Shown: positions 1 through 39,370 of the stretch, piece after piece
How the letters are laid out: the number at the start of each line of letters is the position of its first letter
Position numbering within the stretch: the stretch's first letter is position 1
DNA from: Naegleria gruberi
Lineage: Eukaryota
Assembly (NCBI GenBank): GCA_000004985.1
Contig: GG738895.1
Strand: one strand, 5' to 3'
Length of the DNA: 64,000 nt
Notes under the pieces: model-generated
The model's database searches: none
Told to the model about the DNA's origin: nothing
What the model saw: only the letters and a program-made list of their open reading frames with translations
Program-made: the position numbers and the translations under genes

Positions 1-77
1 ACAGCTGTCCTGACCAATGGTTTAAAAAATCTCTTATTAACAAATCTTTCAGATTCCTATTGGTCATTGTAAAAAAA

Positions 78-1580
78 ATGTTTAAACAACTTGATCACGA
101 TTCCTTGGTCAATATTATTGGATTTCTTAACCTTTCTGATGTATTGGAAAATTTTGCCATCATCAATTCCGAAATAAATCAACTTTTTAATGATCGGTAT
201 GGATACTTGATCTCTTTGATCACAGATAGGATTTTATTCTCGGAAGAACATTTTCTAGCCTTGTTCAATTTTTTAGATAAGAATTTTCAAGTTGAATCAA
301 TACTAAATGAAGAGGAGAGGGAAGTTATTAATTGTACAGCTTTGAGTAGAATATGTGGGGAGGAAAATCATGATGAGAGGAAGGTGATTGAAAGAGTCTT
401 GTCAGAGCAGATTAATTGTGTCCAGATTGATAATTATTCCAAGATGAAAACATGTTGGAGTTGTTGTAAGAGGCTGAGCTATTTGAATATTCTGTTTATA
501 CCTAGGGATAGCGATAGAAACATTGAAGTGTGTTATTGCCCTGGTCATGAAAAATACATTCATTACAGTTTGGATAATTACGGAAAGATTATGAAATTGG
601 CTGACTCCTACGAATTTTCAAAGGATAGAATTTACAAATTTACTTTGCATTATAAGAATGGATTTAACGTAAAGAAAATATATTCGAAACCAAGAGAATC
701 ACATAGAAATCAAAAAGAAATAATTCTTAAAAACAAGGAATTGTATATTGAGCTTACAGGCCCGACTCTTTACGAGTATAATACTGTAACATTAATTCAT
801 CAAGAATCAATTAATAGTGACATTACCATTTCAATACCAAACATTCAAGATTCTGAACATTACAAGAACAGATGTTACTTGGTGAGGAGCGATTTATTTG
901 TCAGACCACTATATGACATTAATTCTTTCTTCCATGATATTTCAGCTCCCAACAAATGTGGAGATTTGAAAGTATCAAGAAAAGGAGATTCTATTTTATG
1001 GACAATCTCAAAGAAAAATATCAAACAATTAGTATTTCGTTTCATGATTACAAATGCTATGATTCTACCACTTTCGTTGCTCCTATTTGTATATTTAACG
1101 GATTATTCTATTGATTCTATATCAACTGATAATATTCAACTCCTTATGCTTTTTCTTGATTCAGTTTCATTAAGTTGCATTTCCCTTTTTGCTTCGGATT
1201 ATTTCACTAACAGATATCGTCGTGTATCAACGGAAAGCTTTAAATTTCTGGCCAAAATTGGTATTGGAAGTTTTTTCCTAAAACTAGTCATTTCATTCAT
1301 TTTTCCATTCCTTTCTCCAGTAGATACAGCAAGTCCATTTAGATTATCATTGCAATTCACAATCCCTTACATATTTTCTTTATTTACAACCATAGTCTCT
1401 TGTTCCTGTTTAGCTCAAACATCATTTTGGTACGCACGTTCCTGTGATTGGTTTTACAATTTGAGGAAGAAGGAATCAGCACTTGGTAGAGTTTTCAATA
1501 AGTGTCTATCTTGGATAACAAACCTCTCCTCCTTGAAAGGTGTAGACAATGACACAGAAGAACGTTGTGTAGTTAACTGA
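78..1580 (+). CDS. Hypothetical protein with an F-box-like N-terminus (LDHDSLVNIIGFLNLSDVLENF) and a C-terminal multi-pass hydrophobic region (about 4 TM helices). The ORF track starts at TTG 60; the first ATG is at 78.
   Basis: Continuous 500-aa ORF. The N-terminal hydrophobic-repeat pattern is typical of F-box proteins, and the C-terminal 150 aa contains several 20-aa hydrophobic stretches. No further similarity recognised. Confidence 0.45.
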   Translation: MFKQLDHDSLVNIIGFLNLSDVLENFAIINSEINQLFNDRYGYLISLITDRILFSEEHFLALFNFLDKNFQVESILNEEEREVINCTALSRICGEENHDERKVIERVLSEQINCVQIDNYSKMKTCWSCCKRLSYLNILFIPRDSDRNIEVCYCPGHEKYIHYSLDNYGKIMKLADSYEFSKDRIYKFTLHYKNGFNVKKIYSKPRESHRNQKEIILKNKELYIELTGPTLYEYNTVTLIHQESINSDITISIPNIQDSEHYKNRCYLVRSDLFVRPLYDINSFFHDISAPNKCGDLKVSRKGDSILWTISKKNIKQLVFRFMITNAMILPLSLLLFVYLTDYSIDSISTDNIQLLMLFLDSVSLSCISLFASDYFTNRYRRVSTESFKFLAKIGIGSFFLKLVISFIFPFLSPVDTASPFRLSLQFTIPYIFSLFTTIVSCSCLAQTSFWYARSCDWFYNLRKKESALGRVFNKCLSWITNLSSLKGVDNDTEERCVVN

Positions 1581-1611: not shown

Positions 1612-2388
1612 ATGCAACAAGATCAAGAAGATGCCACAATAGTTTTCCTGCATGATTTCGCTTTCTATAACCAAAATTCTTCCTCGGAATACTTGGTCAA
1701 TCTCTTGAAGAAAAACCTGTCAAGGCCAAGGACAAGATTTAACATGAAAAAAGTTGACAGTTTCCAAGATTTGGAATTGAGAGAAGATTTACTACGAGGA
1801 GTGTATGGATATGGATTAAAACAATTATCAGAAATTCAAACTAAATGTATCATGCCAATAATATCATCCGAACCACCACTAGATGTTGTTTGCATTTCAA
1901 GCTCGGGGACTGGAAAGAAAACTGCATTCTCAATTGCTCTTCTCCAAAGAATAGACTTGGATCATCAAGCGTACTCTAAAGGAGCACCTCAAGCTCTAGT
2001 TATTACACCTACGAGAGAAATGAGTCAAGTCATTTCTAATCACATCAAGAAATTGGCTCATTATTTGGATGTCAAAGTATTACCTTTCCATGGAGGAGTT
2101 TCAACCAAAGAAACAATCCAAGCTCTAAATGAAATTCAACATGTAGTTGTTGGAACAAACAAATTGATGGACTTAATCAGGTTTAAAGTTTTGAATTTGA
2201 AATATTTGAAACTGATAATAATTGACAGAACAGGTTGTGATTGGCTCGACATGTATGATCAACAGATTTTGAGAATTATCAATGCATCAAACAAATTCAA
2301 CCTTCAAATATGTGTCTTTGGCGATTCGAGAAATATAGGATCGATTGAACAATATCTGAAAGATCCAATTTATTGTGAACTGGAGTAG
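1612..2388 (+). CDS. eIF4A-like DEAD-box helicase N-terminal (RecA1) domain-only protein with degenerate catalytic motifs. Probably a catalytically inactive pseudo-helicase.
   Basis: Clear colinearity with eIF4A domain 1. The phenylalanine upstream of the Q-motif, GVYGYG...IQ, the P-loop-like SSGTGKKTAF (in place of AQSGTGKT), an intact motif Ia PTREMS, GG and VVGT motifs are present. Motif II reads DRTG instead of DEAD and motif III reads FGDS instead of SAT. There is no RecA2 domain and no room for one before the next gene. A real ATG is at 1612. Confidence 0.6.
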   Translation: MQQDQEDATIVFLHDFAFYNQNSSSEYLVNLLKKNLSRPRTRFNMKKVDSFQDLELREDLLRGVYGYGLKQLSEIQTKCIMPIISSEPPLDVVCISSSGTGKKTAFSIALLQRIDLDHQAYSKGAPQALVITPTREMSQVISNHIKKLAHYLDVKVLPFHGGVSTKETIQALNEIQHVVVGTNKLMDLIRFKVLNLKYLKLIIIDRTGCDWLDMYDQQILRIINASNKFNLQICVFGDSRNIGSIEQYLKDPIYCELE

Positions 2389-2683: not shown

Positions 2684-3775
2684 ATGGGAAACAATCAACA
2701 ACCCACATCCCAACCACCAGTTTTAAAAGATGGCGCTCTTCCGAGTGTTAGTACTCCATCATCAGCATGTTATGAACGCACATTAATGCAAGAATATTTT
2801 CCTAATAATTGTAAATTAATTCGAGTTTGTGATCATGATGAAGAAAATCGAAGGAAACAAGAGGAGAATTTGAAGAATTATCGGGAGAAATACTTGTCTC
2901 GATGTAATGGAATATTGGAGAAGATGTTACCTGAGGAAATTATTGTTGAAATTTTGTATTACTTGCCAATGAAGAGTTTGATCAAATTACAAATGGTTTC
3001 AAAGAATTTTCGCTTGTATTGGACTGAACTTCCTGGATTGTGGGATAAATTTTCAGATTATCCCAAAATGATGTATATTCCAATGGTATACGAAAGTATG
3101 AGAAGTAATTTTGGATATTATAATGAATTTAGACAAAAATTAATTAATTTACATGAAAAGCCAACACGAAATTTTGATTTTACTGGATATCAATACAAAG
3201 CCATCGTTTTGGGAGATAAAAAGTGTGGGAAAACCATTTTGCATAACAGAGTCTTCAAAGGCGAACCATTTTCTCAAGAATATGTCTATACGATCGGAGT
3301 AGATTTTTCTACCACAATTTCCAAACAAAACATATACATTCAATCTTGGGATACAGGTGGAGATGAAAGATTTAGAACAATTAATATCAATTTCTTTAGG
3401 GGTATGAAAGGCCACTTTTACTGCTTTGATTTGAATAATCACGAGTCATTTGAAGTAATGAAGGACATTTTTCAAGATTGGAAGAATGTATATCTCAAAG
3501 GTGAAGACCTTAGTTCATATTTTACTAAGATTTCATTCGCATTGGTGGGATTGAAATCAGATTTGGAACGCAAAGTATCAAGAGATGAAATTCATGAATT
3601 CTTGGAAAATATTGAACCACTGAAGGATAAGACTTTGCACACCAGTAGAGTCCAATACTTTGAGTTGAGTTCTAAAGAAGATTCAATTTCAGATTTACTT
3701 TTTCCATTTGTCTATAGTTATCATAATGTAATGGAAATACCAAGGCAATATTCAACAAGTATAAGTGAAATGTAA
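2684..3775 (+). CDS. F-box domain fused to a Ras/Rab-like small GTPase
   Basis: F-box consensus LPEEIIVEILYYLPMKSLIKLQMVSKNF at about aa 80-110. GTPase G1 P-loop GDKKCGKT, G3 WDTGGDERF (DTAGQE-like), G4 GLKSDL (NKxD-like) and G5 ELSSKE (ETSAK-like). Starts MGNNQ. A real ATG is at 2684. Confidence 0.65.
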   Translation: MGNNQQPTSQPPVLKDGALPSVSTPSSACYERTLMQEYFPNNCKLIRVCDHDEENRRKQEENLKNYREKYLSRCNGILEKMLPEEIIVEILYYLPMKSLIKLQMVSKNFRLYWTELPGLWDKFSDYPKMMYIPMVYESMRSNFGYYNEFRQKLINLHEKPTRNFDFTGYQYKAIVLGDKKCGKTILHNRVFKGEPFSQEYVYTIGVDFSTTISKQNIYIQSWDTGGDERFRTININFFRGMKGHFYCFDLNNHESFEVMKDIFQDWKNVYLKGEDLSSYFTKISFALVGLKSDLERKVSRDEIHEFLENIEPLKDKTLHTSRVQYFELSSKEDSISDLLFPFVYSYHNVMEIPRQYSTSISEM

Positions 3776-3924: not shown

Positions 3925-6900
3925 TTAAATCATTAAGAACTGAACAAAGACCACTAAGCACAATACTTCAGTAACAAAATAGCTAGCATTAGCAACAGAA
4001 ACTCTATCCGATTTTCCAGGTGAACCCCTTCTTGATGGTTCTGGAATTGGTTGGGAAGTACTACTTTTTGGTTGTGGAATAGATGGTTGTGGATTAACAG
4101 GACTCTCTCCATTACAATTCATCTCATAAGCTCCAATATCTGGTGCCTTTCCATAATAAGGCATTCCAACATTAGTTCCCTTATCAATCAATGTAATGTT
4201 GCTGTCACATCTCAATCTAAAATCATTAGCCAAATAATCTTTGAAATAATTGGTGGCATTATTGTAATTATTTTCAAAAATGGTGTTTGGTCCAATAACT
4301 GGTTTCCAAATACCTTGGAAATAGCTCCCAACAATTGCAATATAATTGTAATCAGTTTCCCAATATGGAAGAAGATCAAACTTTGCACTAGAAGTTCCAA
4401 TATTCAAGTCAACCAACTGAATAGTATTGTCCAAGAAGGCATTATTCTTCATGGAAACACTTCTTGGATAGTAACTAATCATTGCCGAATCAAAAATTGC
4501 TTGGAATACCAATTCATCAAGAATGGATCTTGTCAACCCTCTTACTTCCTCAATAATTGAAAGACCAGCATTTGAATACGAGAAAGCACCTGTACTGGAG
4601 CTTAATAACCCTCTTTTTGTAACAGCAGTCCAATATGGATAAGCAAGACCATCTTGATCCAATTGAGGAAGAACATAATCTTTGTGAACTGACATGAAAT
4701 TAGTGTCATTAATCACATTGTTAATGAAATTGATAATTTCAGCCTTATCACCACTTGTTAAATCTGAAGCTGTAGAATAAGATCTAATTCTTGATACAAG
4801 AGTTTCATTTTTGGACCAAACTAATTTGTTTCCATTTTCGGTTGGGTTTACAATACTGTTAAAAAGAGTATTCCAATTTGAAGTGGTAGTACTATCTATC
4901 AAAGCACATCTGCTATTATCTGTCTTGACAGCAAATCTCAAAAATGATTGATAGAATTGATTATTATGCAGCACAACTCTAGCAGCATGATTGACACCAA
5001 CTGGACCTCCAATAAAGACATTTCGTCTGAAGATAACTAAACCATTTTGTTCCATCCACATGTTCTGATTACCAAGTTTGTTAATCAATACGTTATCTTC
5101 GAGAACAATGTTATTGATATTGGTAAATTGAATATTATCTGGATGTTGACGATATGAAGTTTGATGCTCAACTCGATTGTTTTTGATTAGAATATTCCAA
5201 TTACTATATGCCAATTGAGTTCCAGAACCAACCCAAATACCATTATTATAATTCTTGTAAATGTACATGTTCTTAATTTGTGAATCGTTCACCATACTTG
5301 CAAAGTTTACACCATTGTTGTGATTATAACTAATCTTGCCGCCATCAACATTAATATTAGTTGCATCTCTGAAACTAAATCCATTTTCACCATTTCCATA
5401 TGAAGAGCAGTTCAATAATTGAACACTATCAGTGAATTGACCAAAAAATCCCATTGAAGCATACTTTCTAAACATCATATCTTGAACAATTAAACCATCC
5501 CCGTAAACTATTGAAATGCCATTGGTCAAGGCAGATGCTTCAAGCATGACACCACTCACCTTAGGATCCTTATCAAGTGAAACTTGAATGATATTTCCTT
5601 CTGCGGTATATTGATTAGCACGAGAGAATGATCCAATATGATTGGCAATAGCATACGAATCTTTCAAGACTATTCCCATTGGAGTAGTAAGTCCTGGCGG
5701 AATGGCATTAATTCCAATAGTATTGGTAGTGGCATTGTAATAGATAATTGTTCGAGGTTGAATGGCATTTCCAAATTGATTGTAATGGTAGAAATCAGCA
5801 CCAACCCAGAAATTATCTGAAACAGGATTTCCTGCAGCATCATATTTGAACATGTCATCAACTTCCAAATAGACTATTCCATTTAAAGTGTATGAAACAT
5901 TCTTTGGAGTGAGATAATTAGTATGATCATATTCATCATCCAAATCATATGGAAGAGGTTTCATTGCCAAACTCAATTTCTCGCCATCTGCATAAATATA
6001 CGAAGTTGAAACTTGAAGTTGACCCTTATAGATGGAAATTGGTGTGGACATGACCTTTTCCAAATTTTTAGGATCAATAATTAATGAACCATCCAAAACT
6101 GCTGAATAAGTTTTGGAATTTCCAGAGGAAGGAGTTGGTGGATTCAAAGGTTTGATAGTAATTGGATGTTTGGAATGGGTTGGGCGATCAAAATAGATTG
6201 ATTCTCTATAGATACCATTTCCAACAATTAAGGTGTCATCTGGAAGTAACATGTATTGAGCTGCATTCAAAGTTGACCAAGCAGAAGATAGACCAAGACC
6301 ATCATTAGAATCGGATCCACTCAATTGATTAACATAGTAGGTCAATCCATTTCTGTTGTGCATTTGTTTACCTTGATAAACAGTAACAGATTGAGATCTC
6401 AAAGTTGCTCCTTTGGAATTTCCTGGATTTCTGTCATAAAAACCAAATTTCAAGATTTTAAACTTTTGAATAGCACTAGAATCGGTATCTGTTACAATGA
6501 CTTGATAATCATTAGCACTGGAACCCAATTTAGCCAACTGAATTGAAATTCCATTTGAAGACCATTCAGCATAAAGTTTGTAAGTGGAATAAAGCAATGG
6601 GACATGAATTAATGCTAATTTGGAGCTAGAATATAAGCGAACAGATTGACCATTCATAATTCTGGTAATGGACATGGTTGGATACAAACTAATCTTGTAA
6701 TAATTGTTTTGGTCAACCAGGAGAACAAAACCAAGATCATAGCTGGTAGATAGAAAACCAGTTTGCAAATTGCTTGAAAATGTAACACCATCAGTAGTGT
6801 CATACGGAGTGTCATAGGTGACAATCGAATCATTTTGATAAATTTGCAACAATTGACTAGCAATACCAACATTTCCTTTTTGGGTATTCCAACCAGCCAT

Positions 6901-7326
6901 GCCATTGCTAAAATTACTCTGCATCAACACCTTCAAACTATTTGGAGTAGGCAATGCAATAGATTGAATAGTAATCATGTGAGTAATGGTTATCTTTTTC
7001 CCATTCACATCATTATACGAAACGTTTCTCATCACCACAGTTTCGCCAATCGATTGTGTACTATAAACCAGAGCTGAATTATAATTATATAAACCAGTTT
7101 TCAATGGAGAACCATCTGCCATTGAATAAGCGATCTGAACTGAAGTTGAAGAATAGGAATCATTGAAATAGGTAATTCTTGGATTTAAAATTACTGAACC
7201 GAATTGATGCATGATAACTTTCTGGATGGGAGTAACGTAGAGTACATCCTGAACAGTTTGTGCATGTGTAACGGTATGAAAAACTGTCAGGAGGAGCAAA
7301 ATGACAAGTGGCAGTTTTGCTTTCAT
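3925..7326 (-). CDS. Large secreted or surface protein with a parallel beta-helix (pectin-lyase-fold-like) repeat region, a Pro/Ser-rich stalk and a hydrophobic GPI-anchor-like C-terminus
   Basis: 1133-aa uninterrupted ORF. N-terminal signal peptide MKAKLPLVILLLLTVFHTVTHA. Repeated Nxx(I/V)xxN/G-rich beta-helix-like units (e.g. NNGIWVGSGTQ, NIQFTNINNIVLEDNVLIN). Many NxS/T sites. C-terminus ...PQPKSSTSQPIPEPS...ASYFVTEVLCLVVFVQFLMI. Confidence 0.55.
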   Translation of the reverse strand: MKAKLPLVILLLLTVFHTVTHAQTVQDVLYVTPIQKVIMHQFGSVILNPRITYFNDSYSSTSVQIAYSMADGSPLKTGLYNYNSALVYSTQSIGETVVMRNVSYNDVNGKKITITHMITIQSIALPTPNSLKVLMQSNFSNGMAGWNTQKGNVGIASQLLQIYQNDSIVTYDTPYDTTDGVTFSSNLQTGFLSTSYDLGFVLLVDQNNYYKISLYPTMSITRIMNGQSVRLYSSSKLALIHVPLLYSTYKLYAEWSSNGISIQLAKLGSSANDYQVIVTDTDSSAIQKFKILKFGFYDRNPGNSKGATLRSQSVTVYQGKQMHNRNGLTYYVNQLSGSDSNDGLGLSSAWSTLNAAQYMLLPDDTLIVGNGIYRESIYFDRPTHSKHPITIKPLNPPTPSSGNSKTYSAVLDGSLIIDPKNLEKVMSTPISIYKGQLQVSTSYIYADGEKLSLAMKPLPYDLDDEYDHTNYLTPKNVSYTLNGIVYLEVDDMFKYDAAGNPVSDNFWVGADFYHYNQFGNAIQPRTIIYYNATTNTIGINAIPPGLTTPMGIVLKDSYAIANHIGSFSRANQYTAEGNIIQVSLDKDPKVSGVMLEASALTNGISIVYGDGLIVQDMMFRKYASMGFFGQFTDSVQLLNCSSYGNGENGFSFRDATNINVDGGKISYNHNNGVNFASMVNDSQIKNMYIYKNYNNGIWVGSGTQLAYSNWNILIKNNRVEHQTSYRQHPDNIQFTNINNIVLEDNVLINKLGNQNMWMEQNGLVIFRRNVFIGGPVGVNHAARVVLHNNQFYQSFLRFAVKTDNSRCALIDSTTTSNWNTLFNSIVNPTENGNKLVWSKNETLVSRIRSYSTASDLTSGDKAEIINFINNVINDTNFMSVHKDYVLPQLDQDGLAYPYWTAVTKRGLLSSSTGAFSYSNAGLSIIEEVRGLTRSILDELVFQAIFDSAMISYYPRSVSMKNNAFLDNTIQLVDLNIGTSSAKFDLLPYWETDYNYIAIVGSYFQGIWKPVIGPNTIFENNYNNATNYFKDYLANDFRLRCDSNITLIDKGTNVGMPYYGKAPDIGAYEMNCNGESPVNPQPSIPQPKSSTSQPIPEPSRRGSPGKSDRVSVANASYFVTEVLCLVVFVQFLMI

Positions 7327-10922: not shown

Positions 10923-11252
10923 ATTTGCTTTTTCCAATAAAAAAACATATAAATTATAACTGTCCAACATTCAACGATGATTCAGCAGAATATTTAAGCT
11001 TATCCATTCACTTTCTATTTCGGTAATCACACGTGTTAATCAAAATAAAAAATTGATTCTCCTTCCCAGGATTTTATTCAAATTGATTGTTAATAAATAA
11101 TTAATTATTTTCAAATTGATTGATTGAAATTGTTTTTCTATTTAAATCTGCAATCCATCATAGATACATTGTTCTTTTAATAAACCATTCAAAAAAAAAT
11201 AGTCCTTCTACTTTTGATCATCCTCTACATTCGTCATAATCCTAATAGTGCC

Positions 11253-13235
11253 ATGTCTGAATACATTGCTTCACTTGTTCAAAAGGGTTATGATCAAGGA
11301 AAAGCCCTCCTTGAAAATTATGGTGTAATCCAAAAACCTGTTCAACCAAATACTCATGATGCCATTCGTGACTTTATCACCAATCATCCATACATCACAA
11401 CAAGTATTGTTACCTCAACATTGTATAGCACTGCCAAGTTTGCGATCGGCCAATTAAAGAAGAGAGTTGCTGCTAATACCATCTTGGAAATTGATTTGGA
11501 AGATGTTGAATTTACTCCTCAACCTGTTGCACCATCATTGTCCCAAATTCTTTCTCCTGGTAAATTCAAGATGAATTATCTTACATTTATTCAAACTTTG
11601 AAAGCTGCCAATCAAAATCCAAAAATTTCTGGATTGATTTTATACTTACCAGGATCAAGTCATAATCCATTCGAAGGTTTAGCTTTGGCTCATATTTATG
11701 AAATGAGAAAGGCTTTATTCGAATTCAAAGGTCAAAAGATTGCTCATGCTGACATGTTCAATTCATCTATTTCTTATTATTTTGCTACTGCTTGTGATAA
11801 GATTTTCATGACTGATAATGGTCTTCTTATTTTGAATGGATTCCAATTACGTAATTTCTTCTTTAAACAATTGTTGGATAAGATTGAGGTCGAACCTTTT
11901 GTTGTAAAGAGAGCTGAATATAAATCAGCAATGAATCCATTCACCGAAGAAAAGTATACTGAACATCATCGTGAACAAGTGGAAACTCTTGCTAAGGAAT
12001 TATTCGATACCTTTGTCTCTGATATTGCTCAAACAAGAGAAAAGAATGCGGAAAGTGTTAGAGAATGGTTTGATATTGGAATTTTTGGACCTAAGGATTC
12101 CGTTGAACACAAAGTTATTGATGGTGTAAAATATAGAGATGAGTTGCTTGGTGTTATGGCACAATCCTTGTCAGTTGATTCTAAAAAGCTCAATTTGTTA
12201 TATCTTCAAAAGTATATTGAACAAAAGCTTGATGGTAGTCCTCTTGATAAAATCAATCCAAAGAAGAAGGATGACAATTTGGTTGCTGTCATTTATGCCA
12301 GTGGAGCTATTGTAAGAGGTAGACCATCCAACCCTAGAGATACCAACATGAATAGCAATGTCATTGTTGATGCAATCTATAAGGCCAGAAAGGATAAGGA
12401 AGTTAAGGTCATTCTCATCAGAGTTGACTCTCCTGGTGGTGAAGTCTCTGCTTCTGAAGTTATTAGAAGAGAAATTGAACTTGCTAGAACTGAAGATAAA
12501 AAGAAGGTAGTTATCTCTATGGGTGGTTTGGCTGCTAGTGGTGGTTATTGGATCAGTTTACCAGGTGATAAGATTGTTTGCAATCCTTTCACAATTACAG
12601 GTTCAATTGGTGTTATCATGGGTAAATTGTATTTGGGAGACTTTTTCTCAAAGAAACTTGGTGTTACCAATGATAGTGTATCAACAAGCAAGAATGCTGG
12701 TCTTTTATCACAATTTGAACGTGCTAATGATCAACAAATGGAAATATTTAATAATCTTGCTGATGATTTTTATGATTCATTCTTGGAAAAGGTTAGTGAA
12801 AGAAGAAATATTTCAAAGGATGATCTCAAGAATAATATTGCAAAGGGTAAAGTCTATCTTGGAAACTCTGCTAAGGCACTTAATTTGGTTGATAGTGTTG
12901 GCGATTTTTATGATGCCCTCCAAGTTGCTAAGGAACTTGCTGGTATGAAGAATGAACCTCACATTGTTGTCTTCCATCCAAAGAAGAAATCTGTAATAGA
13001 GTCCCTTCTCAACACTCAATCTCCATCTAATAGTAAGGAAAGAGCTCTCAAATCCAATGTTTCTATTTTCGAACCATTTACATCATTGTATCAATCAATT
13101 TGTGGATTCATGAAGCTCACTAATATTTTCATCAAGCACCAAAATATTATTGAAAAGTACGCAAAGGTTATTGAAAAGACCCAAGCAGTCAATGGACAAG
13201 TAAGATCAGAACTTGATATCAATGTGGAATTGTAA
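11253..13235 (+). CDS. sppA: Signal peptide peptidase A / protease IV (SppA, peptidase family S49), long two-domain form
   Basis: Tandem S49 domains. C-terminal domain signature VILIRVDSPGGEVSASEVIRREIE...VISMGGLAASGGYWISLPGDKIV...GSIGV. Intronless 660-aa ORF. The track starts at TTG 11214; the first ATG is at 11253. Confidence 0.75.
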   Translation: MSEYIASLVQKGYDQGKALLENYGVIQKPVQPNTHDAIRDFITNHPYITTSIVTSTLYSTAKFAIGQLKKRVAANTILEIDLEDVEFTPQPVAPSLSQILSPGKFKMNYLTFIQTLKAANQNPKISGLILYLPGSSHNPFEGLALAHIYEMRKALFEFKGQKIAHADMFNSSISYYFATACDKIFMTDNGLLILNGFQLRNFFFKQLLDKIEVEPFVVKRAEYKSAMNPFTEEKYTEHHREQVETLAKELFDTFVSDIAQTREKNAESVREWFDIGIFGPKDSVEHKVIDGVKYRDELLGVMAQSLSVDSKKLNLLYLQKYIEQKLDGSPLDKINPKKKDDNLVAVIYASGAIVRGRPSNPRDTNMNSNVIVDAIYKARKDKEVKVILIRVDSPGGEVSASEVIRREIELARTEDKKKVVISMGGLAASGGYWISLPGDKIVCNPFTITGSIGVIMGKLYLGDFFSKKLGVTNDSVSTSKNAGLLSQFERANDQQMEIFNNLADDFYDSFLEKVSERRNISKDDLKNNIAKGKVYLGNSAKALNLVDSVGDFYDALQVAKELAGMKNEPHIVVFHPKKKSVIESLLNTQSPSNSKERALKSNVSIFEPFTSLYQSICGFMKLTNIFIKHQNIIEKYAKVIEKTQAVNGQVRSELDINVEL

Positions 13236-21413: not shown

Positions 21414-21581
21414 TTTTTTTTTGAAAATTGTTTTTTCATAGATCAAAGTTCGTTTTTTGTTTTTTACAATGAACAGTTTTTTGTTATAATTTTTAAATAG
21501 TGAATGGAAAAATTACAACAATTTAAGGAGCTAGCCCAAATGTTTACAACATAACACAATAATTTGAAAGTTTTTAAAAAA

Positions 21582-23018
21582 ATGAAAAAAGTTAAAAAAG
21601 TTAAAAAAGTTAAAAAATCGAAAACTGTCAAGTCATTGGCAGTTGAAGATCAAGTGGTCATACAGGCTGGCCTGTTAGCACCGTTATCATCATCGGATGT
21701 TTTGTTTTATCAAATATTACCATGCTTTCCATTAAAATTGTTATTCGAAACAGCAAGATTAGTTTGTAAAGAATGGAATTTATTTATTGTGGGAAATCAT
21801 AATGATGCTGGTCATGTAAAAGAATATTTTACAGGTCGGTACTCTCTGATCATTCCCCGTGAAAAAGAAGAATCTCTGATGACTTGTATTCGTGCTGGAT
21901 ATTTCCGAAATATAATTCAAAAATTACATTTCAAAGCTTTTGATTCATTTTGTAATCCTTCTATTGTTAGAAACTCAGGAGTGATTGAAATGGTTCCACA
22001 AATTAGTTCAACTTTATTGGATGATTCTTTTCCAAATGTTGAGGAAATTATTATTGGAACTGTCAATTCAGATTCTTGTATTATAAGAGAGGGATTTTGT
22101 AAAAACAAACTGGAAAAGTTGAAATTGTTGAAGATGACCATGCAAAGGGACGTGTCAATTTCTGATATATTTTCATGTGATTTTATGCAAAATTTGACAT
22201 GCTTGAATTTGGATAACTGCTTTATTGATTATACAACAGTTTTACAAATTAGTGAATGTCCACTGAAGAACTTGGAGAAATTGTGCTTAGGATATAATTC
22301 AATAACTCAATTGGGAGCTCTTACATTGTCCAAAAGCAAACATCTTTCAAAATTAACATATTTAGATTTGACTTATAATGACATTGGTGATGAAGGGCTT
22401 AGACATCTTTGTGAAAGTGAAACACTGTGTAATATTTCAAATCTATTATTGGAATTTAATGTAATTTCAGAATTGGAGCCTCTTTTACAAAGCTCCAATA
22501 TGAAAAATCTAGCACATTTGAATTTGTATAGATGTAGTTTGAATTTAAAAAGCTTTATGTCATTGATATCTTGCCCTAATTTACCAAAACTTTCAGAAAT
22601 TAGTCTATACCATGCAGGTTTAACAGGAATGCAAGAATTAGAAACTTCTCACATCATAGTATCCAACTCAATCAATCGACTTGATCTATCCTCTTGCAGT
22701 TTAGATGATTTGGGATTTAGGTGTTTGTTAAATTCCCTCAAATACGACTCCATTACTGAACTAAATCTTAGGTACAATGAAATTGGAAATGAAGGATTGT
22801 TGTGCCTAGCTGAATGTCCCTTCCTGACCAATTTGAGGATACTCGACCTATCTGGAAATCCAATAGATGATGAAGGTGCCCTCTACCTGGCACAAAACGT
22901 TCAATTTCCAAATATTAAGGAATTAATTTTAGAGTTTACCAAAATGACCAAAAATGGCAGTGAAAAATTTTCAGAAATTATTTTACAACGATTCCCAAAT
23001 GTTAATTTAACTATTTAA
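21582..23018 (+). CDS. F-box / leucine-rich-repeat protein (ribonuclease-inhibitor-type LRRs)
   Basis: Lys-rich N-terminus (KKVKKVKKVKK). F-box-like LAPLSSSDVLFYQILPCFPLKLLFETARLVCKEWNLFIV, followed by RNI-like LRRs (LDLTYNDIGDEGLRHL, LNLRYNEIGNEGLLCL, LDLSGNPIDDEGALYL). ATG at 21582. Confidence 0.6.
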   Translation: MKKVKKVKKVKKSKTVKSLAVEDQVVIQAGLLAPLSSSDVLFYQILPCFPLKLLFETARLVCKEWNLFIVGNHNDAGHVKEYFTGRYSLIIPREKEESLMTCIRAGYFRNIIQKLHFKAFDSFCNPSIVRNSGVIEMVPQISSTLLDDSFPNVEEIIIGTVNSDSCIIREGFCKNKLEKLKLLKMTMQRDVSISDIFSCDFMQNLTCLNLDNCFIDYTTVLQISECPLKNLEKLCLGYNSITQLGALTLSKSKHLSKLTYLDLTYNDIGDEGLRHLCESETLCNISNLLLEFNVISELEPLLQSSNMKNLAHLNLYRCSLNLKSFMSLISCPNLPKLSEISLYHAGLTGMQELETSHIIVSNSINRLDLSSCSLDDLGFRCLLNSLKYDSITELNLRYNEIGNEGLLCLAECPFLTNLRILDLSGNPIDDEGALYLAQNVQFPNIKELILEFTKMTKNGSEKFSEIILQRFPNVNLTI

Positions 23019-25695: not shown

Positions 25696-27141
25696 ATGTT
25701 CTCGAGAACAAGGGTTATTTTCAAAATAATAATAATAATAATAATTAATGAATTGCTAATAGAGAATATTATATTTTCGGATGATGTTTGTTTTGAAATT
25801 ATTTCCATGATTGATGATTCGTGGTTTATTTTGAATAATTGTTCTTTAATTTCAAAACAATGGTTTAATGTGATCAAGGATCGTTCAAAACTTGTTATTC
25901 AATTTAAAAAAAAATTAACAGAAAAAAGAGTTGAATTATTAATGAAAAGTCAATTCATGAACAGTATTGTAAATGTTAAGTTTTCTTTTGGGTTGCTTAA
26001 CTCTTCAGATAAACTTAAATTCATAAGTGAAATGAAACATTTAACATCACTTGATATTGCTGACAATCAAATTGGTGATGAGGGATCTAAATTCATAAGT
26101 GGAATGAAACATTTAACATCACTTAATATAGATCGCAATCAAATTGGTGTAGAAGGAGCCAAACTCATAAGTGGAATGAAATCATTAATATCACTTAGTA
26201 TTGGTGATAATCAAATTGGTGTAGAAGGAGCCAAACTCATAAGTGGAATGAAACATTTAACATCACTTGATATAAATCGCAATCAAATTGGTGTAGAAGG
26301 AGCCAAATCAATAAGTAGAATGAAACAATTAACATCACTTAATATATATTACAATCAAATTGGTGCTGAGGGAGCCAAATCAATAAGTGGAATGAAACAA
26401 TTAACATCACTTGATATTGGTGGAAATCAAATTGGTGTAGAAGAATCCAAATACATAAGTGAAATGAAACAATTAACATCACTTGATATATATAACAATC
26501 AAATTGGTGTAGAAGGAGCCAAATCAATAAGTGGAATGAAACAATTAACATCACTTAATATTGGTTTCAATCGAATTGGTGTAGAAGGATCCAAACTCAT
26601 AAGTGAAATGAAACAATTAACATCACTTAATATTGGTTCCAATGAAATTGGTGTAGAAGGGTCCAAATTCATACCTGAAATGAAACATTTAACATCACTT
26701 AATATATATTACAATGAAATTGGTGATGAAGGATCCAAATACATAAGTGAAATGAAACAATTAACATCACTTGATATATATTACAATGAAATTGGTGTGG
26801 AAGGAGCCAAATACATAAGTGAAATGAAACAATTAACATCACTTGGTATTAGTGATAATCAAATTGGTGTAGAAGGAGCCAAATTCATAAGTGAAATGAA
26901 ATTATTAACATCACTTGATATTGCTGACAATCAAATTGGTGATGAGGGATCTAAATTCATAAGTGAAATGAAATCATTAACATCGCTTAATGTTAATTCC
27001 AATCAAATTGGTGATGAGGGAGCCAAACTTATAAGTGGAATGAAACAATTAACATCACTTAAAATATATTACAATCAAATTGGTGAAACTTTATTAATGT
27101 CTGTTATATCAATAACAGCTGAGACCAAATCTTTAGACTAA
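25696..27141 (+). CDS. F-box / RNI-type LRR protein composed of about 15 tandem 24-aa repeats (LTSLDIxxNQIGVEGAKxISxMKQ)
   Basis: ATG at 25696. N-terminal F-box-like FSDDVCFEIISMIDDSWFILNNCSLISKQWFNVI. The remainder is a perfectly periodic 24-aa LRR array; adjacent units are nearly identical at the nucleotide level. Confidence 0.65.
   Translation: MFSRTRVIFKIIIIIIINELLIENIIFSDDVCFEIISMIDDSWFILNNCSLISKQWFNVIKDRSKLVIQFKKKLTEKRVELLMKSQFMNSIVNVKFSFGLLNSSDKLKFISEMKHLTSLDIADNQIGDEGSKFISGMKHLTSLNIDRNQIGVEGAKLISGMKSLISLSIGDNQIGVEGAKLISGMKHLTSLDINRNQIGVEGAKSISRMKQLTSLNIYYNQIGAEGAKSISGMKQLTSLDIGGNQIGVEESKYISEMKQLTSLDIYNNQIGVEGAKSISGMKQLTSLNIGFNRIGVEGSKLISEMKQLTSLNIGSNEIGVEGSKFIPEMKHLTSLNIYYNEIGDEGSKYISEMKQLTSLDIYYNEIGVEGAKYISEMKQLTSLGISDNQIGVEGAKFISEMKLLTSLDIADNQIGDEGSKFISEMKSLTSLNVNSNQIGDEGAKLISGMKQLTSLKIYYNQIGETLLMSVISITAETKSLD
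26030..27090 (+). repeat. Tandem array of about 15 copies of a 72-bp unit (coding LRR repeats), near-identical at the DNA level
   Basis: Unit ...aatgaaacaattaacatcacttgatat(a/t)..aatcaaattggtgtagaaggagccaaa(t/c)(c/t)(a/c)ataagtg(g/a)... repeated head-to-tail. Only a few substitutions per unit. Confidence 0.75.
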
Positions 27142-28320: not shown

Positions 28321-29418
28321 TTATAGCATGGTTTTTAGAGTGGCAACAGCATAGAGGAATGGAAAGAGAAGGTCATCATCAGAGCACTCTTCTTTGGAGC
28401 TTAATTCAAAATATTGAACTTTGGTTGTGTGAATTGTTTTTTGTTGAGGCTCTGGCTCGACCATTTTTAGAAAATTGTAAATTTCAAGTCTTGTTACTTG
28501 ATGATCGAGATCTGATTTCAATCCGAGTAAGAGGAAACATCTATCATTGATATTGTAATCTGAAATATCTTTGACTGTCATTTCGTGATAAATTTCAATC
28601 ATTTCCTCAAATGATTTATGACTATTCAAATCAAAACAATACACAAAAACATTAGCTCTCGAATAAACAGATTTGAATAGCGATAGATATGTTTGATTTC
28701 CACATGTATCCCAAATCTTGAATGCAAATTCCGTCCCACTTCCATAAAGGTAATGCTTGTCAATTACTGGGAAAGTTATTGAGGGTGTATAATTTTCCGA
28801 AAATGGTAATTGATTAAAAGCTCTATCAATCAAAGTGGATTTACCACACCCTGATGACCCAACAAATATGTATTGGGCACATTGAGGCAATTCAACATCC
28901 TCATCTATTACAAATCTCTTCAGCAAGACATTTTTAACATTTTCATAACTTTCCATATCAGAAAACATGTACAACATTGGACTTTTTCTCCTCAAATCCT
29001 TCCACAGAACTTCAAATCTGGTCCAATACATTAAAAATCTCTTTGAAACTCGTTGCATTCTCCCTATACTTTCCATATCCAAAAATTGTAAAATGTGTAA
29101 AATTATTTCATGAGGAAAATTCGTCAACCAACCATCCTTCTCCTCACCCTGATTGAAATACTCATCATTGCCTCCATATCCTCTCCTAATTCCATTAAAA
29201 ATTCCTATCGGAAGCAATTCTACATCCGAAACAATAGTAGAAAGAATAGATTTCCTCTTGAATCCTCTTGGTAATTCCAACACGGGAAAATGTAGGGATT
29301 TTCCTGTAGAATAAAGTAAATTTTCAGATTGTTCACGGGAGGGGATTTTATTTTCATCTCTTGCTTGGTGATTCAGAGATGATGATGAGGGCGTCTCTGT
29401 TGATGTTTGTTGTCCCAT
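28321..29418 (-). CDS. F-box domain fused to a Ras/Rab-like small GTPase (paralog of the 2684-3775 gene)
   Basis: F-box FPHEIILHILQFLDMESIGRMQRVSKRF. GTPase P-loop GSSGCGKST, G3 WDTCGNQTY, G4 GLKSDL, G5 ELSSKE. N-terminus MGQQTS fits an N-myristoylation pattern. Shares the C-terminal LLFPF(V/L)Y motif with the paralog. ATG at 29418. Confidence 0.65.
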   Translation of the reverse strand: MGQQTSTETPSSSSLNHQARDENKIPSREQSENLLYSTGKSLHFPVLELPRGFKRKSILSTIVSDVELLPIGIFNGIRRGYGGNDEYFNQGEEKDGWLTNFPHEIILHILQFLDMESIGRMQRVSKRFLMYWTRFEVLWKDLRRKSPMLYMFSDMESYENVKNVLLKRFVIDEDVELPQCAQYIFVGSSGCGKSTLIDRAFNQLPFSENYTPSITFPVIDKHYLYGSGTEFAFKIWDTCGNQTYLSLFKSVYSRANVFVYCFDLNSHKSFEEMIEIYHEMTVKDISDYNINDRCFLLLGLKSDLDHQVTRLEIYNFLKMVEPEPQQKTIHTTKVQYFELSSKEECSDDDLLFPFLYAVATLKTML

Positions 29419-37732: not shown

Positions 37733-39370
37733 ATGTCTTTGCTATCATCATATGAAACATCACCAAACATCACTACAGGTCAATCAATTTGTGATAAAAG
37801 ATTGCTAGAATTAGGTCAACTGAGCAGAGAAGGATACAATGCCACAATTACTAACAATATTTGTCCAGATAGTATTTTCACTCCGATATTTGCAAGTGGA
37901 ATTTTGATATTTTATATTGTTCTGGTTTGTTTTGGGGTGTTTGGAGTTTATTGGAAGAGAAATAGTGGACATGTCAAGGCACGTCATGCGACATTTATGA
38001 TTTTGACAATTGTTGCTAGTTTTATGTGTGTTTTGTTGACGTGTTTGAGATATATTGTGGGGAGGAAGGTGATGCCTTGTTTTTTGTATAGTATCTCTAT
38101 ATTTATTACGCCACCTGCCATTTGTCTGCCAACTGTTTTGAGATATGTCAGAACTTTCTTCTTGTATCGATTGAATTTGAAGAAAGCAGCAAATGTGAGA
38201 GCTAGCAAAGAGTTTTATATTCAAAAGAATACTGAACTAGAGAAGGAAGAAGTCAAAAGTCCAACTCGAGATGTCCAAGTTGATTTGACATTTAACAATG
38301 AAGAAAATAATAAGGAAAATAATGAATTGAATAAGGCTCAATCAGAACAAGAATTGAATATTACATCGAATAGTTCTGTGGAAAAGAGTGATATTGATTC
38401 GAATTCGGAAGGTTTAGACCAAGCTTACTTGGACTATTCTGAATCGGCCATGTTTTCCAAAAGTTTCAAAATTCTTAACTTTATTTTGAGTAACAAGTTT
38501 ATTGTACTGGTTTATATTCTCGCATTTGGATTTCATTTGGCTGTTTGGGCTATCTTTGGAGGTGTGGATGAGATTTTATGGAACACTTCAGGGAAACGAA
38601 TCTTCCTGTGGAGTGTGAGCATGTTTCAGTTTGATACTGGATGTGTAACAACTACGAATGGAGTAATTTTGATGGTTAGTGAGGCAGCTTTCTACATCAT
38701 TCTAGAGTTTGTCTTTTTTATTTTATTGTTTTTTGTGGATAGAGATACGTGGTCAATTAAGATTGAAGCAATTGTGATGATTATCATTCAGATTATATTG
38801 GCAGCTTCATTTCTTATAAGTGGACAAATTGAAGTGATTAGATTTTTCACAGATTACATAGTTCCATATGGATTTGCTGCATTATTGTATCCAATTTTGG
38901 AAATTTTAATTTCAGTCATTCTTCCAGTAATTTATGCCATCAGACAAGATAGAAAATCAATCACTCATGAAGGAAATCAAATGGAAATCCTCCTCAGAAA
39001 TAGAGAGACATTCTGGCTCATATTGGACTATGCAAGACGAAGTTATTGCCCCGAGAATATTCTTGCATATAAGGATATTGAGAATTTCAAAAAAATTTCA
39101 AAAAAGAATAGAAAGCAAGTTGCCCTCAAGATTATCAACACCTACTTGGTGCATGACTCTCCTCTGGAGCTTAACATTCCAAATGCCTCGACGAGATATC
39201 ATGAAATTAATACGTTTCTTACAGGACTAGTTGATGACAATGTGCCTTTAGATCTCTTTGATGATATCAAACTAGCTTGTCTGACAAATATGACAGACAT
39301 CTTTGAACGATTGAAATCTAGTAATTTGGAATTCAAACAAAAAGTTGAATCATTGAACAAAGGACAATAA
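37733..39370 (+). CDS. Seven-transmembrane protein with a C-terminal RGS (regulator of G-protein signalling) domain
   Basis: About 7 hydrophobic helices between aa 50 and 400. The C-terminal approximately 120 aa (FWLILDYARRSYCPENILAYKDIENFKKIS...ALKIINTYLVHDSPLELNIP...TRYHEINTFL...DLFDDIKLACLTNMTDIFERLKSS) follows the RGS helical pattern (FxxFLxxExxxENLxFWxxxxxFK...A..IYxxYL...SxxEVNI...). ATG at 37733. Confidence 0.6.
   Translation: MSLLSSYETSPNITTGQSICDKRLLELGQLSREGYNATITNNICPDSIFTPIFASGILIFYIVLVCFGVFGVYWKRNSGHVKARHATFMILTIVASFMCVLLTCLRYIVGRKVMPCFLYSISIFITPPAICLPTVLRYVRTFFLYRLNLKKAANVRASKEFYIQKNTELEKEEVKSPTRDVQVDLTFNNEENNKENNELNKAQSEQELNITSNSSVEKSDIDSNSEGLDQAYLDYSESAMFSKSFKILNFILSNKFIVLVYILAFGFHLAVWAIFGGVDEILWNTSGKRIFLWSVSMFQFDTGCVTTTNGVILMVSEAAFYIILEFVFFILLFFVDRDTWSIKIEAIVMIIIQIILAASFLISGQIEVIRFFTDYIVPYGFAALLYPILEILISVILPVIYAIRQDRKSITHEGNQMEILLRNRETFWLILDYARRSYCPENILAYKDIENFKKISKKNRKQVALKIINTYLVHDSPLELNIPNASTRYHEINTFLTGLVDDNVPLDLFDDIKLACLTNMTDIFERLKSSNLEFKQKVESLNKGQ

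What the first reader, a model, noticed from the sequence alone, without database searches (positions are those of the whole stretch)
2684..3775. F-box fused to a Rab/Ras-like GTPase, present as two paralogs (second at 28321-29418)
Each protein combines an N-terminal F-box (SCF ubiquitin-ligase adaptor) with a complete small-GTPase fold. The G motifs are partly non-canonical: G3 is DTGGDE or DTCGNQ instead of DTAGQE, and G4 is LKSD instead of NKxD. Both share a conserved C-terminal LLFPFxY tail; the 28321 copy begins MGQQTS, a myristoylation-type N-terminus. A nucleotide-switch-controlled SCF substrate receptor is an unusual architecture. The altered G3/G4 motifs suggest changed GTP hydrolysis or nucleotide specificity.
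Basis: partly seen in the sequence, partly recalled or inferred. Interest (0 to 1): 0.6.

Follow-up and report, generated by a model that had tools for sequence, protein, structure and literature searches.

The report
Naegleria F-box Rab-like GTPase paralogs
Two genes of the amoeba Naegleria gruberi really do encode an F-box (ubiquitin-ligase adaptor) fused to a divergent Rab-like GTPase, but both are already listed as such in a 2021 paper, so the finding is correct and not new.

Summary
ORFs 2684-3775(+) and 28321-29418(-) are intact single-exon genes of 363 and 365 aa. Each has a Pfam F-box above the gathering score, followed by a Ras/Rab domain (E about 1e-23). The two proteins are 36% identical. 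The window is Naegleria gruberi. The proteins are XP_002672750.1 and XP_002672819.1, and both appear as "Rab / F-box" in Table S8 of Herman et al. 2021 (PMC8296547). That paper describes Naegleria-specific F-box Rab-like clades and proposes GTPase-dependent ubiquitination, so the finding is already known.

Added here: named relatives come only from Naegleria spp. and Willaertia magna. In 23 members the nucleotide-contact residues are conserved, the catalytic Gln is never present, and the Asn of NKxD is always L/M/T/F. None of the 23 has a CC, CxC or CaaX prenylation motif. All 19 models with an intact N-terminus have Met-Gly, 17 at residue 1. "LLFPFxY" is the start of helix alpha5, not a separate tail.

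The most likely function is a membrane-anchored SCF receptor whose slowly hydrolysing Rab-like domain binds substrates, by analogy with Rab40-Cullin5. This is inference only. Common origin with the euglenozoan FYVE-F-box-GTPase FRP was tested and not supported.

The parts
2684..3775 (+). Gene 1, complete CDS with stop codon: 363-aa F-box Rab-like GTPase (N. gruberi XP_002672750.1)
   Evidence: ORF. 100% identical to P0001. Accession. Listed 'Rab / F-box' in Table S8 of PMC8296547.
2684..2920 (+). Gene 1 N-terminal region (aa 1-79): Met-Gly start followed by a poorly conserved, mostly low-confidence segment
   Evidence: MGNNQQ. pLDDT is below 50 for residues 6-29. Mean column entropy is 2.48 bits.
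2927..3043 (+). Gene 1 F-box (aa 82-120, LPEEIIVEILYYLPMKSLIKLQMVSKNFRLYWTELPGLW)
   Evidence: PF00646, 29.0 bits against a cut-off of 20.5. Short helices at 77-111 in the model.
3044..3187 (+). Gene 1 linker (aa 121-168), predicted to contain a strand at 131-134 and a long helix at 139-158
   Evidence: No Pfam match.
3188..3730 (+). Gene 1 Rab-like G domain (aa 169-349). G1 GDKKCGKT at 3212-3235, G2 YTIGVDF at 3287-3307, G3 WDTGGDE at 3347-3367, G4 GLKSD at 3548-3562, G5 ELSSK at 3662-3676, LLFPFVY (start of alpha5) at 3695-3715
   Evidence: PF00071, E 2e-23. Motif coordinates. Foldseek matches to Rab9/11/1.
28321..29418 (-). Gene 2, complete CDS with stop codon: 365-aa F-box Rab-like GTPase (N. 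gruberi XP_002672819.1)
   Evidence: ORF. 100% identical to P0003. Accession. Listed 'Rab / F-box' in Table S8.
29401..29418 (-). Gene 2 N-terminus MGQQTS, with a good N-myristoylation context (Gly2, Ser6)
29002..29118 (-). Gene 2 F-box (aa 101-139, FPHEIILHILQFLDMESIGRMQRVSKRFLMYWTRFEVLW)
   Evidence: PF00646 27.6 bits and PF12937 29.0 bits. Coordinates.
28345..28884 (-). Gene 2 Rab-like G domain (aa 179-358). G1 GSSGCGKS at 28837-28860, G3 WDTCGNQ at 28693-28713, G4 GLKSD at 28510-28524, G5 ELSSK at 28393-28407, LLFPFLY at 28351-28371
   Evidence: PF00071, E 1e-22. Domain limits. Motif coordinates.

Best explanation
Identity (close to certain): these are two diverged paralogs of a lineage-specific, rapidly evolving family of F-box-containing Rab-like GTPases. 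The named members come from vahlkampfiid heteroloboseans (Naegleria spp. and Willaertia). The family was catalogued by Herman et al. 2021.

Mechanism (inferred): the protein is tethered to a membrane by its N-terminus, probably through N-myristoylation of Gly2, instead of the C-terminal prenyl group of true Rabs. The F-box docks it onto Skp1-Cul1-Rbx1. The Rab-like G domain sits where WD40 or LRR domains sit in ordinary F-box proteins, and acts as the substrate-recognition module. It would bind effector-like partners through its switch surfaces and present them for local ubiquitylation.

The nucleotide-contact residues are conserved, but the catalytic Gln is missing and the NKxD Asn is replaced by a hydrophobic residue. 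The domain therefore probably binds guanine nucleotide but hydrolyses it slowly and may exchange it quickly. That would make it a mostly GTP-loaded module, or one regulated in an unconventional way, rather than a classical GEF/GAP-cycled switch. Diversification of the paralogs would give different substrate specificities.
For: Shown here:
- Both domains are in one uninterrupted ORF.
- Across the family, Ras is found in 23/23 members and F-box in 22/23.
- The order F-box, structured linker, G domain gives a single confident model with pTM 0.73.
- The G domain is closest to Rabs by sequence and by fold.
- Nucleotide-contact residues are conserved: P-loop G/G/K 23/23, switch I Thr 21/23, DxxG Asp 19/23 and Gly 20/23, G4 Lys 23/23 and Asp 20/23, G5 Ser 21/23.
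- The Gln position is S/D/E/N/K/H and never Q. The G4 Asn position is L12/M6/T4/F1.
- None of the 23 C-termini shows a CC, CxC or CaaX prenylation motif; three members have a lone Cys in the last six residues. All 19 models with an intact N-terminus carry MG[QN], 17 at residue 1 and 2 downstream of an apparently over-extended start. 13 of the 19 have S/T/A at position 6.
- Among G-domain segments, switch II is one of the more variable (2.55 bits), while the beta4, G4 and G5 segments are conserved (1.0-1.7 bits).

From the literature:
- Herman et al. propose 'GTPase-dependent ubiquitination' for these fusions.
- Rab40 with its SOCS box forms a Cullin5 ligase that ubiquitylates Rab40-bound proteins (PMC8129794, PMC10509765).
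- ARF-family GTPases have repeatedly been fused to F-box, BTB or RING domains (PMC8358228).
- From my own knowledge: Asn-to-Ile mutants of NKxD (Ras N116I, Rab1 N121I) lower nucleotide affinity. The best-scoring PDB sequence, 2wwx_A, is a Rab1 chain that reads GIKCD at this motif.
Against: - There is no experimental data on Skp1 binding, nucleotide binding, lipidation or substrates.
- The F-box scores are modest (27-29 bits), and a single-sequence search of the F-box plus linker found no solved relative.
- Gene 1 has a poor myristoylation context (Gln6, Pro7).
- Some family members have degenerate G1 or G3 motifs (XP_002680417; gaps), so nucleotide binding is not universal.
- Without the catalytic Gln and the G4 Asn, the domain may not behave as a switch at all.
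- The interdomain arrangement rests on one AlphaFold model built from a 23-sequence alignment.
Confidence: 0.5

Rival explanations
1. Self-regulation. The F-box does not recruit substrates. It couples the GTPase itself to SCF or the proteasome, so that the Rab-like protein turns over rapidly. The real output would be conventional Rab-like effector signalling on membranes.
For: This role was proposed for the F-box of the trypanosome FYVE-F-box-GTPase TbFRP, which is rapidly processed and whose level depends on cell density (PMC3593210). F-box proteins are commonly auto-ubiquitylated (my own knowledge).
Against: The F-box is the adaptor side of SCF, not a degron. The G domain sits exactly where substrate-binding domains sit in other F-box proteins, behind a structured linker. 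A GTPase that lacks the catalytic Gln is a poor timer.
Confidence: 0.2
2. Non-SCF Skp1 complex. The F-box binds Skp1 without Cul1 and the complex acts directly in membrane recycling. This would resemble the yeast F-box protein Rcy1, which works with Ypt31/32 and Ypt6 (my own knowledge).
For: The protein is Rab-like and probably membrane-anchored. There is a precedent for an F-box protein acting in Rab-dependent recycling without ligase activity (my own knowledge, not checked here).
Against: Nothing in the sequence distinguishes SCF from non-SCF use. There is no similarity to Rcy1 beyond the F-box.
Confidence: 0.1
3. Pseudo-GTPase scaffold. The G domain no longer binds nucleotide and is a static interaction module. 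Some copies may be decaying genes in a birth-and-death family.
For: The G4 Asn is lost in all members and the catalytic Gln in all. Some paralogs lack the P-loop or DxxG. Herman et al. note disrupted copies and birth-and-death evolution.
Against: The P-loop G/G/K, switch I Thr, DxxG, G4 Lys/Asp and G5 Ser are conserved in sequences only 25-40% identical. That indicates purifying selection on nucleotide contacts. Both window copies have intact ORFs and all of these residues.
Confidence: 0.12
4. Distant orthologs of the euglenozoan FRP (FYVE-F-box-GTPase). This would mean one ancient F-box-Rab-like gene in Discoba, with the N-terminal membrane anchor swapped between FYVE and myristoyl-Gly.
For: The module order is the same: N-terminal membrane targeting, F-box, then a G domain with no prenylation motif. 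A profile-profile alignment is collinear from the F-box to the end of the G domain, at 98.7% probability. Euglena FRP reads GLKGD at G4 and DASGD at G3, the same kinds of substitution.
Against: Taking the G domain alone, FRP scores higher against canonical Rabs (139.5) than against the Naegleria family (86.9). The Naegleria family is far closer to canonical Rabs (309). N-terminal similarity is limited to the 43 F-box columns. There is no FYVE domain. The FRP authors found no N. gruberi ortholog. The FRP sequences were rebuilt from machine-read PDF text and contain errors.
Confidence: 0.08

Closest known systems
Naegleria-specific F-box Rab-like clades (Herman et al. 2021, BMC Biol, PMC8296547, Additional file 4 and Table S8)
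   Same: These are the same proteins. XP_002672750.1 and XP_002672819.1 are listed as 'Rab' with additional domain 'F-box'. The paper describes three divergent Rab-like subgroups with an N-terminal F-box extension, birth-and-death evolution, and the idea of GTPase-dependent ubiquitination.
   Different: Nothing differs in identity. The following are not stated in the texts I could read: the Met-Gly start in every model with an intact N-terminus, the family-wide loss of the catalytic Gln and of the NKxD Asn alongside conserved nucleotide contacts, and the Willaertia members. The paper says close relatives are lacking outside Naegleria.
Rab40 (Rab GTPase with SOCS box; Cullin5 ligase receptor)
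   Same: A Rab-type G domain is fused to a cullin-RING-ligase adaptor motif. The GTPase binds proteins that are then ubiquitylated (PMC8129794, PMC10509765). This is the best functional analogy.
   Different: In Rab40 the adaptor is a C-terminal SOCS box (Elongin B/C-Cul5), not an N-terminal F-box (Skp1-Cul1). From my own knowledge, Rab40 keeps canonical G motifs and C-terminal prenylation. No SOCS box is detected here. The two fusions arose independently.
TbFRP / euglenozoan FRP (FYVE-F-box-Ras-like GTPase, PMC3593210)
   Same: It has an F-box directly upstream of a divergent Rab-derived G domain, no C-terminal prenylation motif, and membrane targeting supplied from the N-terminus. The catalytic Gln is absent, and Euglena FRP has LKGD at G4.
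   Different: FRP has a FYVE domain and no Met-Gly start. Its G domain shows no specific affinity to the Naegleria family. Kinetoplastid FRPs have lost G4 entirely.
RhoBTB, and BTB- or F-box-containing ARF-family proteins
   Same: These are Ras-superfamily G domains fused to cullin-adaptor domains. Such fusions have arisen repeatedly in eukaryotes.
   Different: They involve a different GTPase family and a different adaptor (BTB with Cul3). No BTB domain is present here.
Canonical Rab1/Rab8/Rab3/Rab9/Rab11 GTPases
   Same: These are the best sequence and fold matches for the G domain. Gene 1 keeps the RabF1-like IGVDF motif.
   Different: Canonical Rabs have no F-box, have DTAGQE and NKxD, and have C-terminal Cys prenylation. 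All three features differ here.

Membership tests
F-box proteins (SCF substrate receptors) | An F-box motif of about 40-50 aa recognised by the family profile above its curated threshold | tested here: met
   PF00646 scores 29.0 and 27.6 bits against a cut-off of 20.5. PF12937 scores 29.0 bits against 24.3 for gene 2 and 24.0 bits (just below) for gene 1. 22 of 23 family members match.
F-box proteins (SCF substrate receptors) | Helical F-box fold followed by a linker and a C-terminal protein-interaction domain | tested here: met
   The AlphaFold model has helices at 77-81, 84-91, 96-105 and 107-111. These are followed by a strand, a long helix at 139-158, and the G domain at 170-349. pLDDT is about 75 over the F-box and pTM is 0.73.
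F-box proteins (SCF substrate receptors) | Binds Skp1 and assembles with Cul1-Rbx1 | not testable with these tools
   This needs a pull-down or a complex prediction with N. gruberi Skp1.
Rab family small GTPases | Ras-like G domain whose closest relatives are Rabs | tested here: met
   PF00071, E 2e-23 and 1e-22. The top 60 PDB sequence hits are all Rab/Ypt/Sec4. Foldseek top hits are Rab9/11/1 with target TM about 0.8.
Rab family small GTPases | Canonical G3 DTAGQE with the catalytic Gln | tested here: not met
   DTGGDE and DTCGNQ. The Gln position is never Q in 23 members.
Rab family small GTPases | Canonical G4 [NT]KxD | tested here: not met
   LKSD in both genes. Across the family the first position is L12/M6/T4/F1, with Lys invariant and Asp in 20/23.
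Rab family small GTPases | C-terminal Cys prenylation motif (CC, CxC or CaaX) | tested here: not met
   The C-termini are ...STSISEM and ...ATLKTML. None of the 23 members shows a CC, CxC or CaaX motif, although three have a lone Cys in the last six residues.
Naegleria F-box Rab-like clades of Herman et al. 2021 | Listed by accession, with a conserved N-terminal extension containing an F-box upstream of a divergent Rab-like domain | tested here: met
   Both appear in Table S8 as 'Rab ... F-box'. The family is described.
Euglenozoan FRP (FYVE-F-box-GTPase) | N-terminal FYVE domain | tested here: not met
   No FYVE match in Pfam at E up to 1.
Euglenozoan FRP (FYVE-F-box-GTPase) | G domain specifically related to FRP rather than to Rabs in general | tested here: not met
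   hhalign scores: FRP against the Naegleria family 86.9, FRP against canonical Rabs 139.5, Naegleria family against Rabs 309.
Rab40 / SOCS-box GTPases | C-terminal SOCS box | tested here: not met
   No SOCS-box match. The sequence after alpha5 is only 14 and 7 residues long.
N-myristoylated proteins | Gly at position 2 with a small or hydroxyl residue at position 6 | tested here: inconclusive
   Gly2 is present in both genes and in all 19 models with an intact N-terminus. Gene 2 has Ser6. Gene 1 has Gln6 and Pro7, which is unfavourable. 13 of 19 members are favourable. Actual lipidation cannot be tested here.

The most novel reading that the evidence does not exclude
The family may be an amoebal 'integrated decoy' defence. 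In this reading the proteins are rapidly diversifying Rab look-alikes, locked in a GTP-like state and tethered to membranes. They would bait pathogen effectors that target host Rabs, such as those of Legionella and other amoeba-resisting bacteria, and hand them to SCF for ubiquitylation. The observations that fit are lineage-specific birth-and-death expansion, variable switch regions on a conserved nucleotide-binding core, and closest similarity to Rab1/8-type GTPases. From my own knowledge, Rab1/8-type GTPases are favourite effector targets. This is pure speculation and nothing here tests it.
Probability: 0.06. Interest if true: 0.85.

Novelty: already known. Interest (0 to 1): 0.25.

Why it matters
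The architecture places a GTPase where an SCF ligase normally carries its substrate-binding domain. That suggests nucleotide-dependent, membrane-localised ubiquitylation. [quoted passage not shown] This adds a third independent route, alongside Rab40-Cul5 and RhoBTB-Cul3, by which eukaryotes have wired small GTPases to cullin ligases.

The fusion itself has been catalogued for these very genes, so this finding adds only detail: likely N-terminal acylation, loss of the catalytic Gln, a hydrophobic residue at G4, and a Willaertia extension of the family. No function is known, and genetic tools for Naegleria are limited.

Tried and rejected
1. Common origin with euglenozoan FRP. I rebuilt five FRP sequences from the machine-read supplementary alignment. 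The full-length profile alignment is collinear. G-domain-only comparisons show no specific affinity. I rejected the idea as unsupported, with the caveats of text-recognition errors and long branches.

2. The word-indexed protein search found only 2, 1 and 5 relatives and missed the in-window paralog. The exhaustive representative search was needed to see the family.

3. The first AlphaFold run, with 3 sequences, was useless (pLDDT 35). The 23-sequence run worked.

5. A single-sequence search of the F-box plus linker against PDB gave only chance hits.

6. I looked for a third copy or a pseudogene in the window and found none.

7. A literature search for F-box + Ras superfamily + Heterolobosea gave no papers.

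8. Most multi-stretch hits of the representative search turned out to be tandem-GTPase proteins, not F-box fusions.

Full report
**1. Observation**

ORF 2684-3775(+) encodes 363 aa and ORF 28321-29418(-) encodes 365 aa. In-frame stop codons lie 11 and 7 codons upstream of the two ATGs, so each protein starts at Met-Gly unless an intron intervenes.

Pfam finds an F-box and a Ras-family domain in each protein:
- Gene 1: F-box PF00646 at aa 82-115, 29.0 bits against a gathering score of 20.5.
- Gene 2: F-box PF00646 at aa 98-137, 27.6 bits, and F-box-like PF12937 at 29.0 bits against 24.3.
- Ras PF00071: 83.2 and 80.9 bits, E 2e-23 and 1e-22.

The proteins are 36% identical over 274 aa, from the F-box to the C-terminus (E 1e-44). 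tblastn finds no further copy in the window.

**2. Source and prior description**

Both proteins are 100% identical over their full length to Naegleria gruberi NEG-M proteins. These are annotated 'rab family small GTPase' (XP_002672750.1) and 'small GTPase' (XP_002672819.1), on a 333,733-bp contig. The public single-exon gene models therefore equal the ORFs, and the two halves are not separate genes.

Herman et al. 2021 (BMC Biol 19:142, PMC8296547) re-annotated the Ras superfamily of Naegleria.
- Their Table S8 lists both accessions as 'Rab' with additional domain 'F-box'.
[quoted passage not shown] These have a conserved N-terminal extension identifiable as an F-box and show birth-and-death evolution.
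- It notes that the F-box is the most frequent extra domain on Naegleria GTPases (Rab, Rho, Ran, G-alpha). [quoted passage not shown]
- It adds that no specific functional prediction is possible.

The finding and its interpretation are therefore already in the literature, at the level of sequence analysis.

**3. The family**

An exhaustive profile search of 1.84 billion representative proteins gave 30 hits below 1e-30. A family-specific F-box profile marks about 28 representative clusters as F-box plus G-domain proteins.
- The named ones are from N. gruberi, N. lovaniensis, N. fowleri and Willaertia magna. The rest are short metagenomic contigs. Willaertia slightly extends the published range.
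- Of 23 aligned members, 23 match Pfam Ras and 22 match the F-box.
- Gene 1's closest relative is the N. gruberi paralog XP_002677491 (49% identity). The N. lovaniensis relatives are 39-41% identical to gene 1 and 66% identical to each other. Gene 2 is at most 37% identical to anything. This fits rapid lineage-specific turnover.
- Long forms of 765-954 aa carry the same F-box plus G-domain module behind an N-terminal extension of about 380-570 aa with no Pfam domain.

**4. Anatomy**

*Nucleotide-binding residues (23 members).*
- P-loop Gly, Gly and Lys are invariant, followed by Ser or Thr in 22.
- The switch I Thr is present in 21.
- In DxxG, Asp is present in 19 and Gly in 20.
- In G4, Lys is invariant and Asp is present in 20, with Glu in the other 3.
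- In G5, Ser is present in 21 and Lys in 19.
- The position of the catalytic Gln (DTAGQE) is S, D, E, N, K, H, I or G, and never Q.
- The Asn of NKxD is always replaced: L 12, M 6, T 4, F 1.

Conservation of the contact residues in sequences only 25-40% identical argues that nucleotide binding is under selection. Loss of the Gln argues for very slow intrinsic and GAP-stimulated hydrolysis. From my own knowledge, Asn-to-Ile mutants of NKxD (Ras N116I, Rab1 N121I) have lowered nucleotide affinity and fast exchange. The top PDB sequence hit, 2wwx_A, is a Rab1 chain that reads GIKCD at this motif.

*Membrane anchoring.*
- None of the 23 members has a CC, CxC or CaaX prenylation motif at the C-terminus. 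Three have a lone Cys in the last six residues.
- All 19 models with an intact N-terminus carry MG[QN]. In 17 it is at residue 1, and in 2 it lies downstream of an apparently over-extended start. 13 of the 19 have S/T/A at position 6.
- Gene 2 (MGQQTS) fits the N-myristoylation consensus. Gene 1 (MGNNQQP) fits it poorly.
- Myristoylation is not mentioned in the supplements of Herman et al..

*Structure.*
- An AlphaFold model of gene 1 from the 23-sequence alignment has mean pLDDT 76 and pTM 0.73.
- Its elements in order are: a disordered N-terminus, F-box helices (77-111), a strand (131-134), a long helix (139-158), and a Rab fold (170-349, pLDDT mostly above 90).
- The 'LLFPFxY tail' is the beginning of the last G-domain helix (335-349).
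- Foldseek against PDB returns Rab9, Rab11, Rab1, Rab8 and others at target TM about 0.8. No full-length match was found.

*Conservation by segment.*
- Most conserved: beta6/G5 (0.99 bits), beta5/G4 (1.65 bits), beta4 with the start of alpha3 (1.69 bits) and the F-box (1.86 bits).
- More variable: switch II (2.55 bits), the linker (2.87 bits) and the alpha3 insert (2.82 bits).

**5. Mechanism**

The best-supported reading, which is inferred, is a membrane-tethered SCF substrate receptor. The F-box would bind Skp1-Cul1. The G domain occupies the place of the usual WD40 or LRR substrate-binding domain and would recruit effector-like partners for local ubiquitylation. It is likely to be slow in hydrolysis, and perhaps fast in exchange and therefore mostly GTP-loaded.

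The closest working analogy is Rab40. Its SOCS box recruits Cullin5 to ubiquitylate Rab40-bound proteins such as EPLIN and ANKRD28 (PMC8129794, PMC9070665, PMC10509765). RhoBTB and the BTB- or F-box-containing ARF-family proteins show the same theme.

The rivals are:
- F-box-driven turnover of the GTPase itself, as suggested for TbFRP.
- A non-SCF Skp1 complex acting in trafficking, like yeast Rcy1 (my own knowledge).
- A nucleotide-free pseudo-GTPase scaffold.

None of these can be excluded without experiments. The conserved nucleotide contacts weigh against the third.

**6. Relation to euglenozoan FRP**

TbFRP is a FYVE-F-box-Ras-like GTPase restricted to Euglenozoa. Its authors found no N. 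gruberi ortholog (PMC3593210). Naegleria also belongs to Discoba, and FRP likewise lacks prenylation, so I tested for common origin.
- From the supplementary alignment, FRP G3 is DxSG[H/E/A/D]. Euglena FRP G4 is GLKGD, which resembles the Naegleria family.
- The two profiles align collinearly from the F-box to the end of the G domain (98.7% probability).
- The FRP G domain nevertheless scores better against canonical Rabs (139.5) than against the Naegleria family (86.9). The Naegleria family is much closer to canonical Rabs (309).
- The N-terminal match is confined to the F-box.

Common origin is therefore not supported. Independent fusion is the simpler reading. The test is weak, because the sequences came from machine-read PDF text and both groups are long branches.

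**7. Verdict**

Its novelty is 'already known', because these exact accessions are published as F-box Rab proteins with the same functional suggestion.

The residual value lies in details that may not have been stated before:
- a Met-Gly start in every model with an intact N-terminus;
- family-wide loss of the catalytic Gln and the G4 Asn, with the nucleotide contacts preserved;
- the tail motif being the start of alpha5;
- family members in Willaertia.

The function of a large, fast-evolving family remains untested.

Noticed in passing
window 3925-7326 (-): Directly downstream of gene 1 lies a 1133-aa ORF. It has a hydrophobic N-terminus (MKAKLPLVILLLLTVFHTVTHA), a weak right-handed beta-helix match (PF13229, E 2.6e-4, below threshold), a Pro/Ser-rich stalk and a hydrophobic C-terminal segment. 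It looks like a secreted or surface-anchored beta-helix protein.
   Followed up: partly
window 60-1580 (+) and 1612-2388 (+): The 258-aa ORF holds only the N-terminal part of a DEAD-box helicase domain (PF00270, E 4.8e-20). It is preceded by a 506-aa ORF with no Pfam match on the same strand. This could be an intron-split or truncated gene model.
   Followed up: no
window 21564-23018 (+) and 25696-27141 (+): Two LRR_6/LRR_8-rich ORFs (E 2e-22 and 2e-72) lie between the two F-box Rab-like paralogs. I did not check whether they carry an F-box in an upstream exon.
   Followed up: no
window 37733-39370 (+); 55903-57651 (+); 51050-52699 (+); 11214-13235 (+): Other ordinary eukaryotic genes are present: an RGS-domain protein, a C2 plus YbjQ-like (C2CD5-like) protein, a sedolisin/kumamolisin-type peptidase and an S49 peptidase.
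   Followed up: no
Table S8 of PMC8296547, corrected model XP_002677491.1* (not in the window): The published corrected model starts MFSKIWKASLTCHDLNIKITKK and only then MGNKQPS. Every other complete family member starts at MG[QN], so the internal Met-Gly is probably the true start.
   Followed up: partly
PDB chain 2wwx_A: The best-scoring solved sequence for the family profile is a Rab1 chain that reads GIKCD instead of GNKCD at G4. It carries the same kind of Asn-to-hydrophobic change that is fixed in this family.
   Followed up: partly
Supplement of PMC3593210: Euglena gracilis FRP has G4 'ICGLKGD' and G3 'DASGD', whereas kinetoplastid FRPs have lost G4 altogether ('VCGLIPP'). The same Asn-to-Leu change seems to have arisen in two F-box-GTPase lineages.
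   Followed up: yes
P0002 and P0007 (N. lovaniensis C9374_009435 and C9374_009431, same 835,982-bp contig): The two N. lovaniensis relatives are 66% identical to each other and lie four locus tags apart. This looks like a recent local duplication and fits birth-and-death evolution.
   Followed up: partly
P0096, P0100 (N. gruberi XP_002676828.1), P0103 (N. fowleri): Long family members of 765-954 aa also start MGQ. They carry about 380-570 aa of sequence with no Pfam domain ahead of the F-box plus G-domain module. The P-loop part of the G domain is not matched by the profiles.
   Followed up: partly
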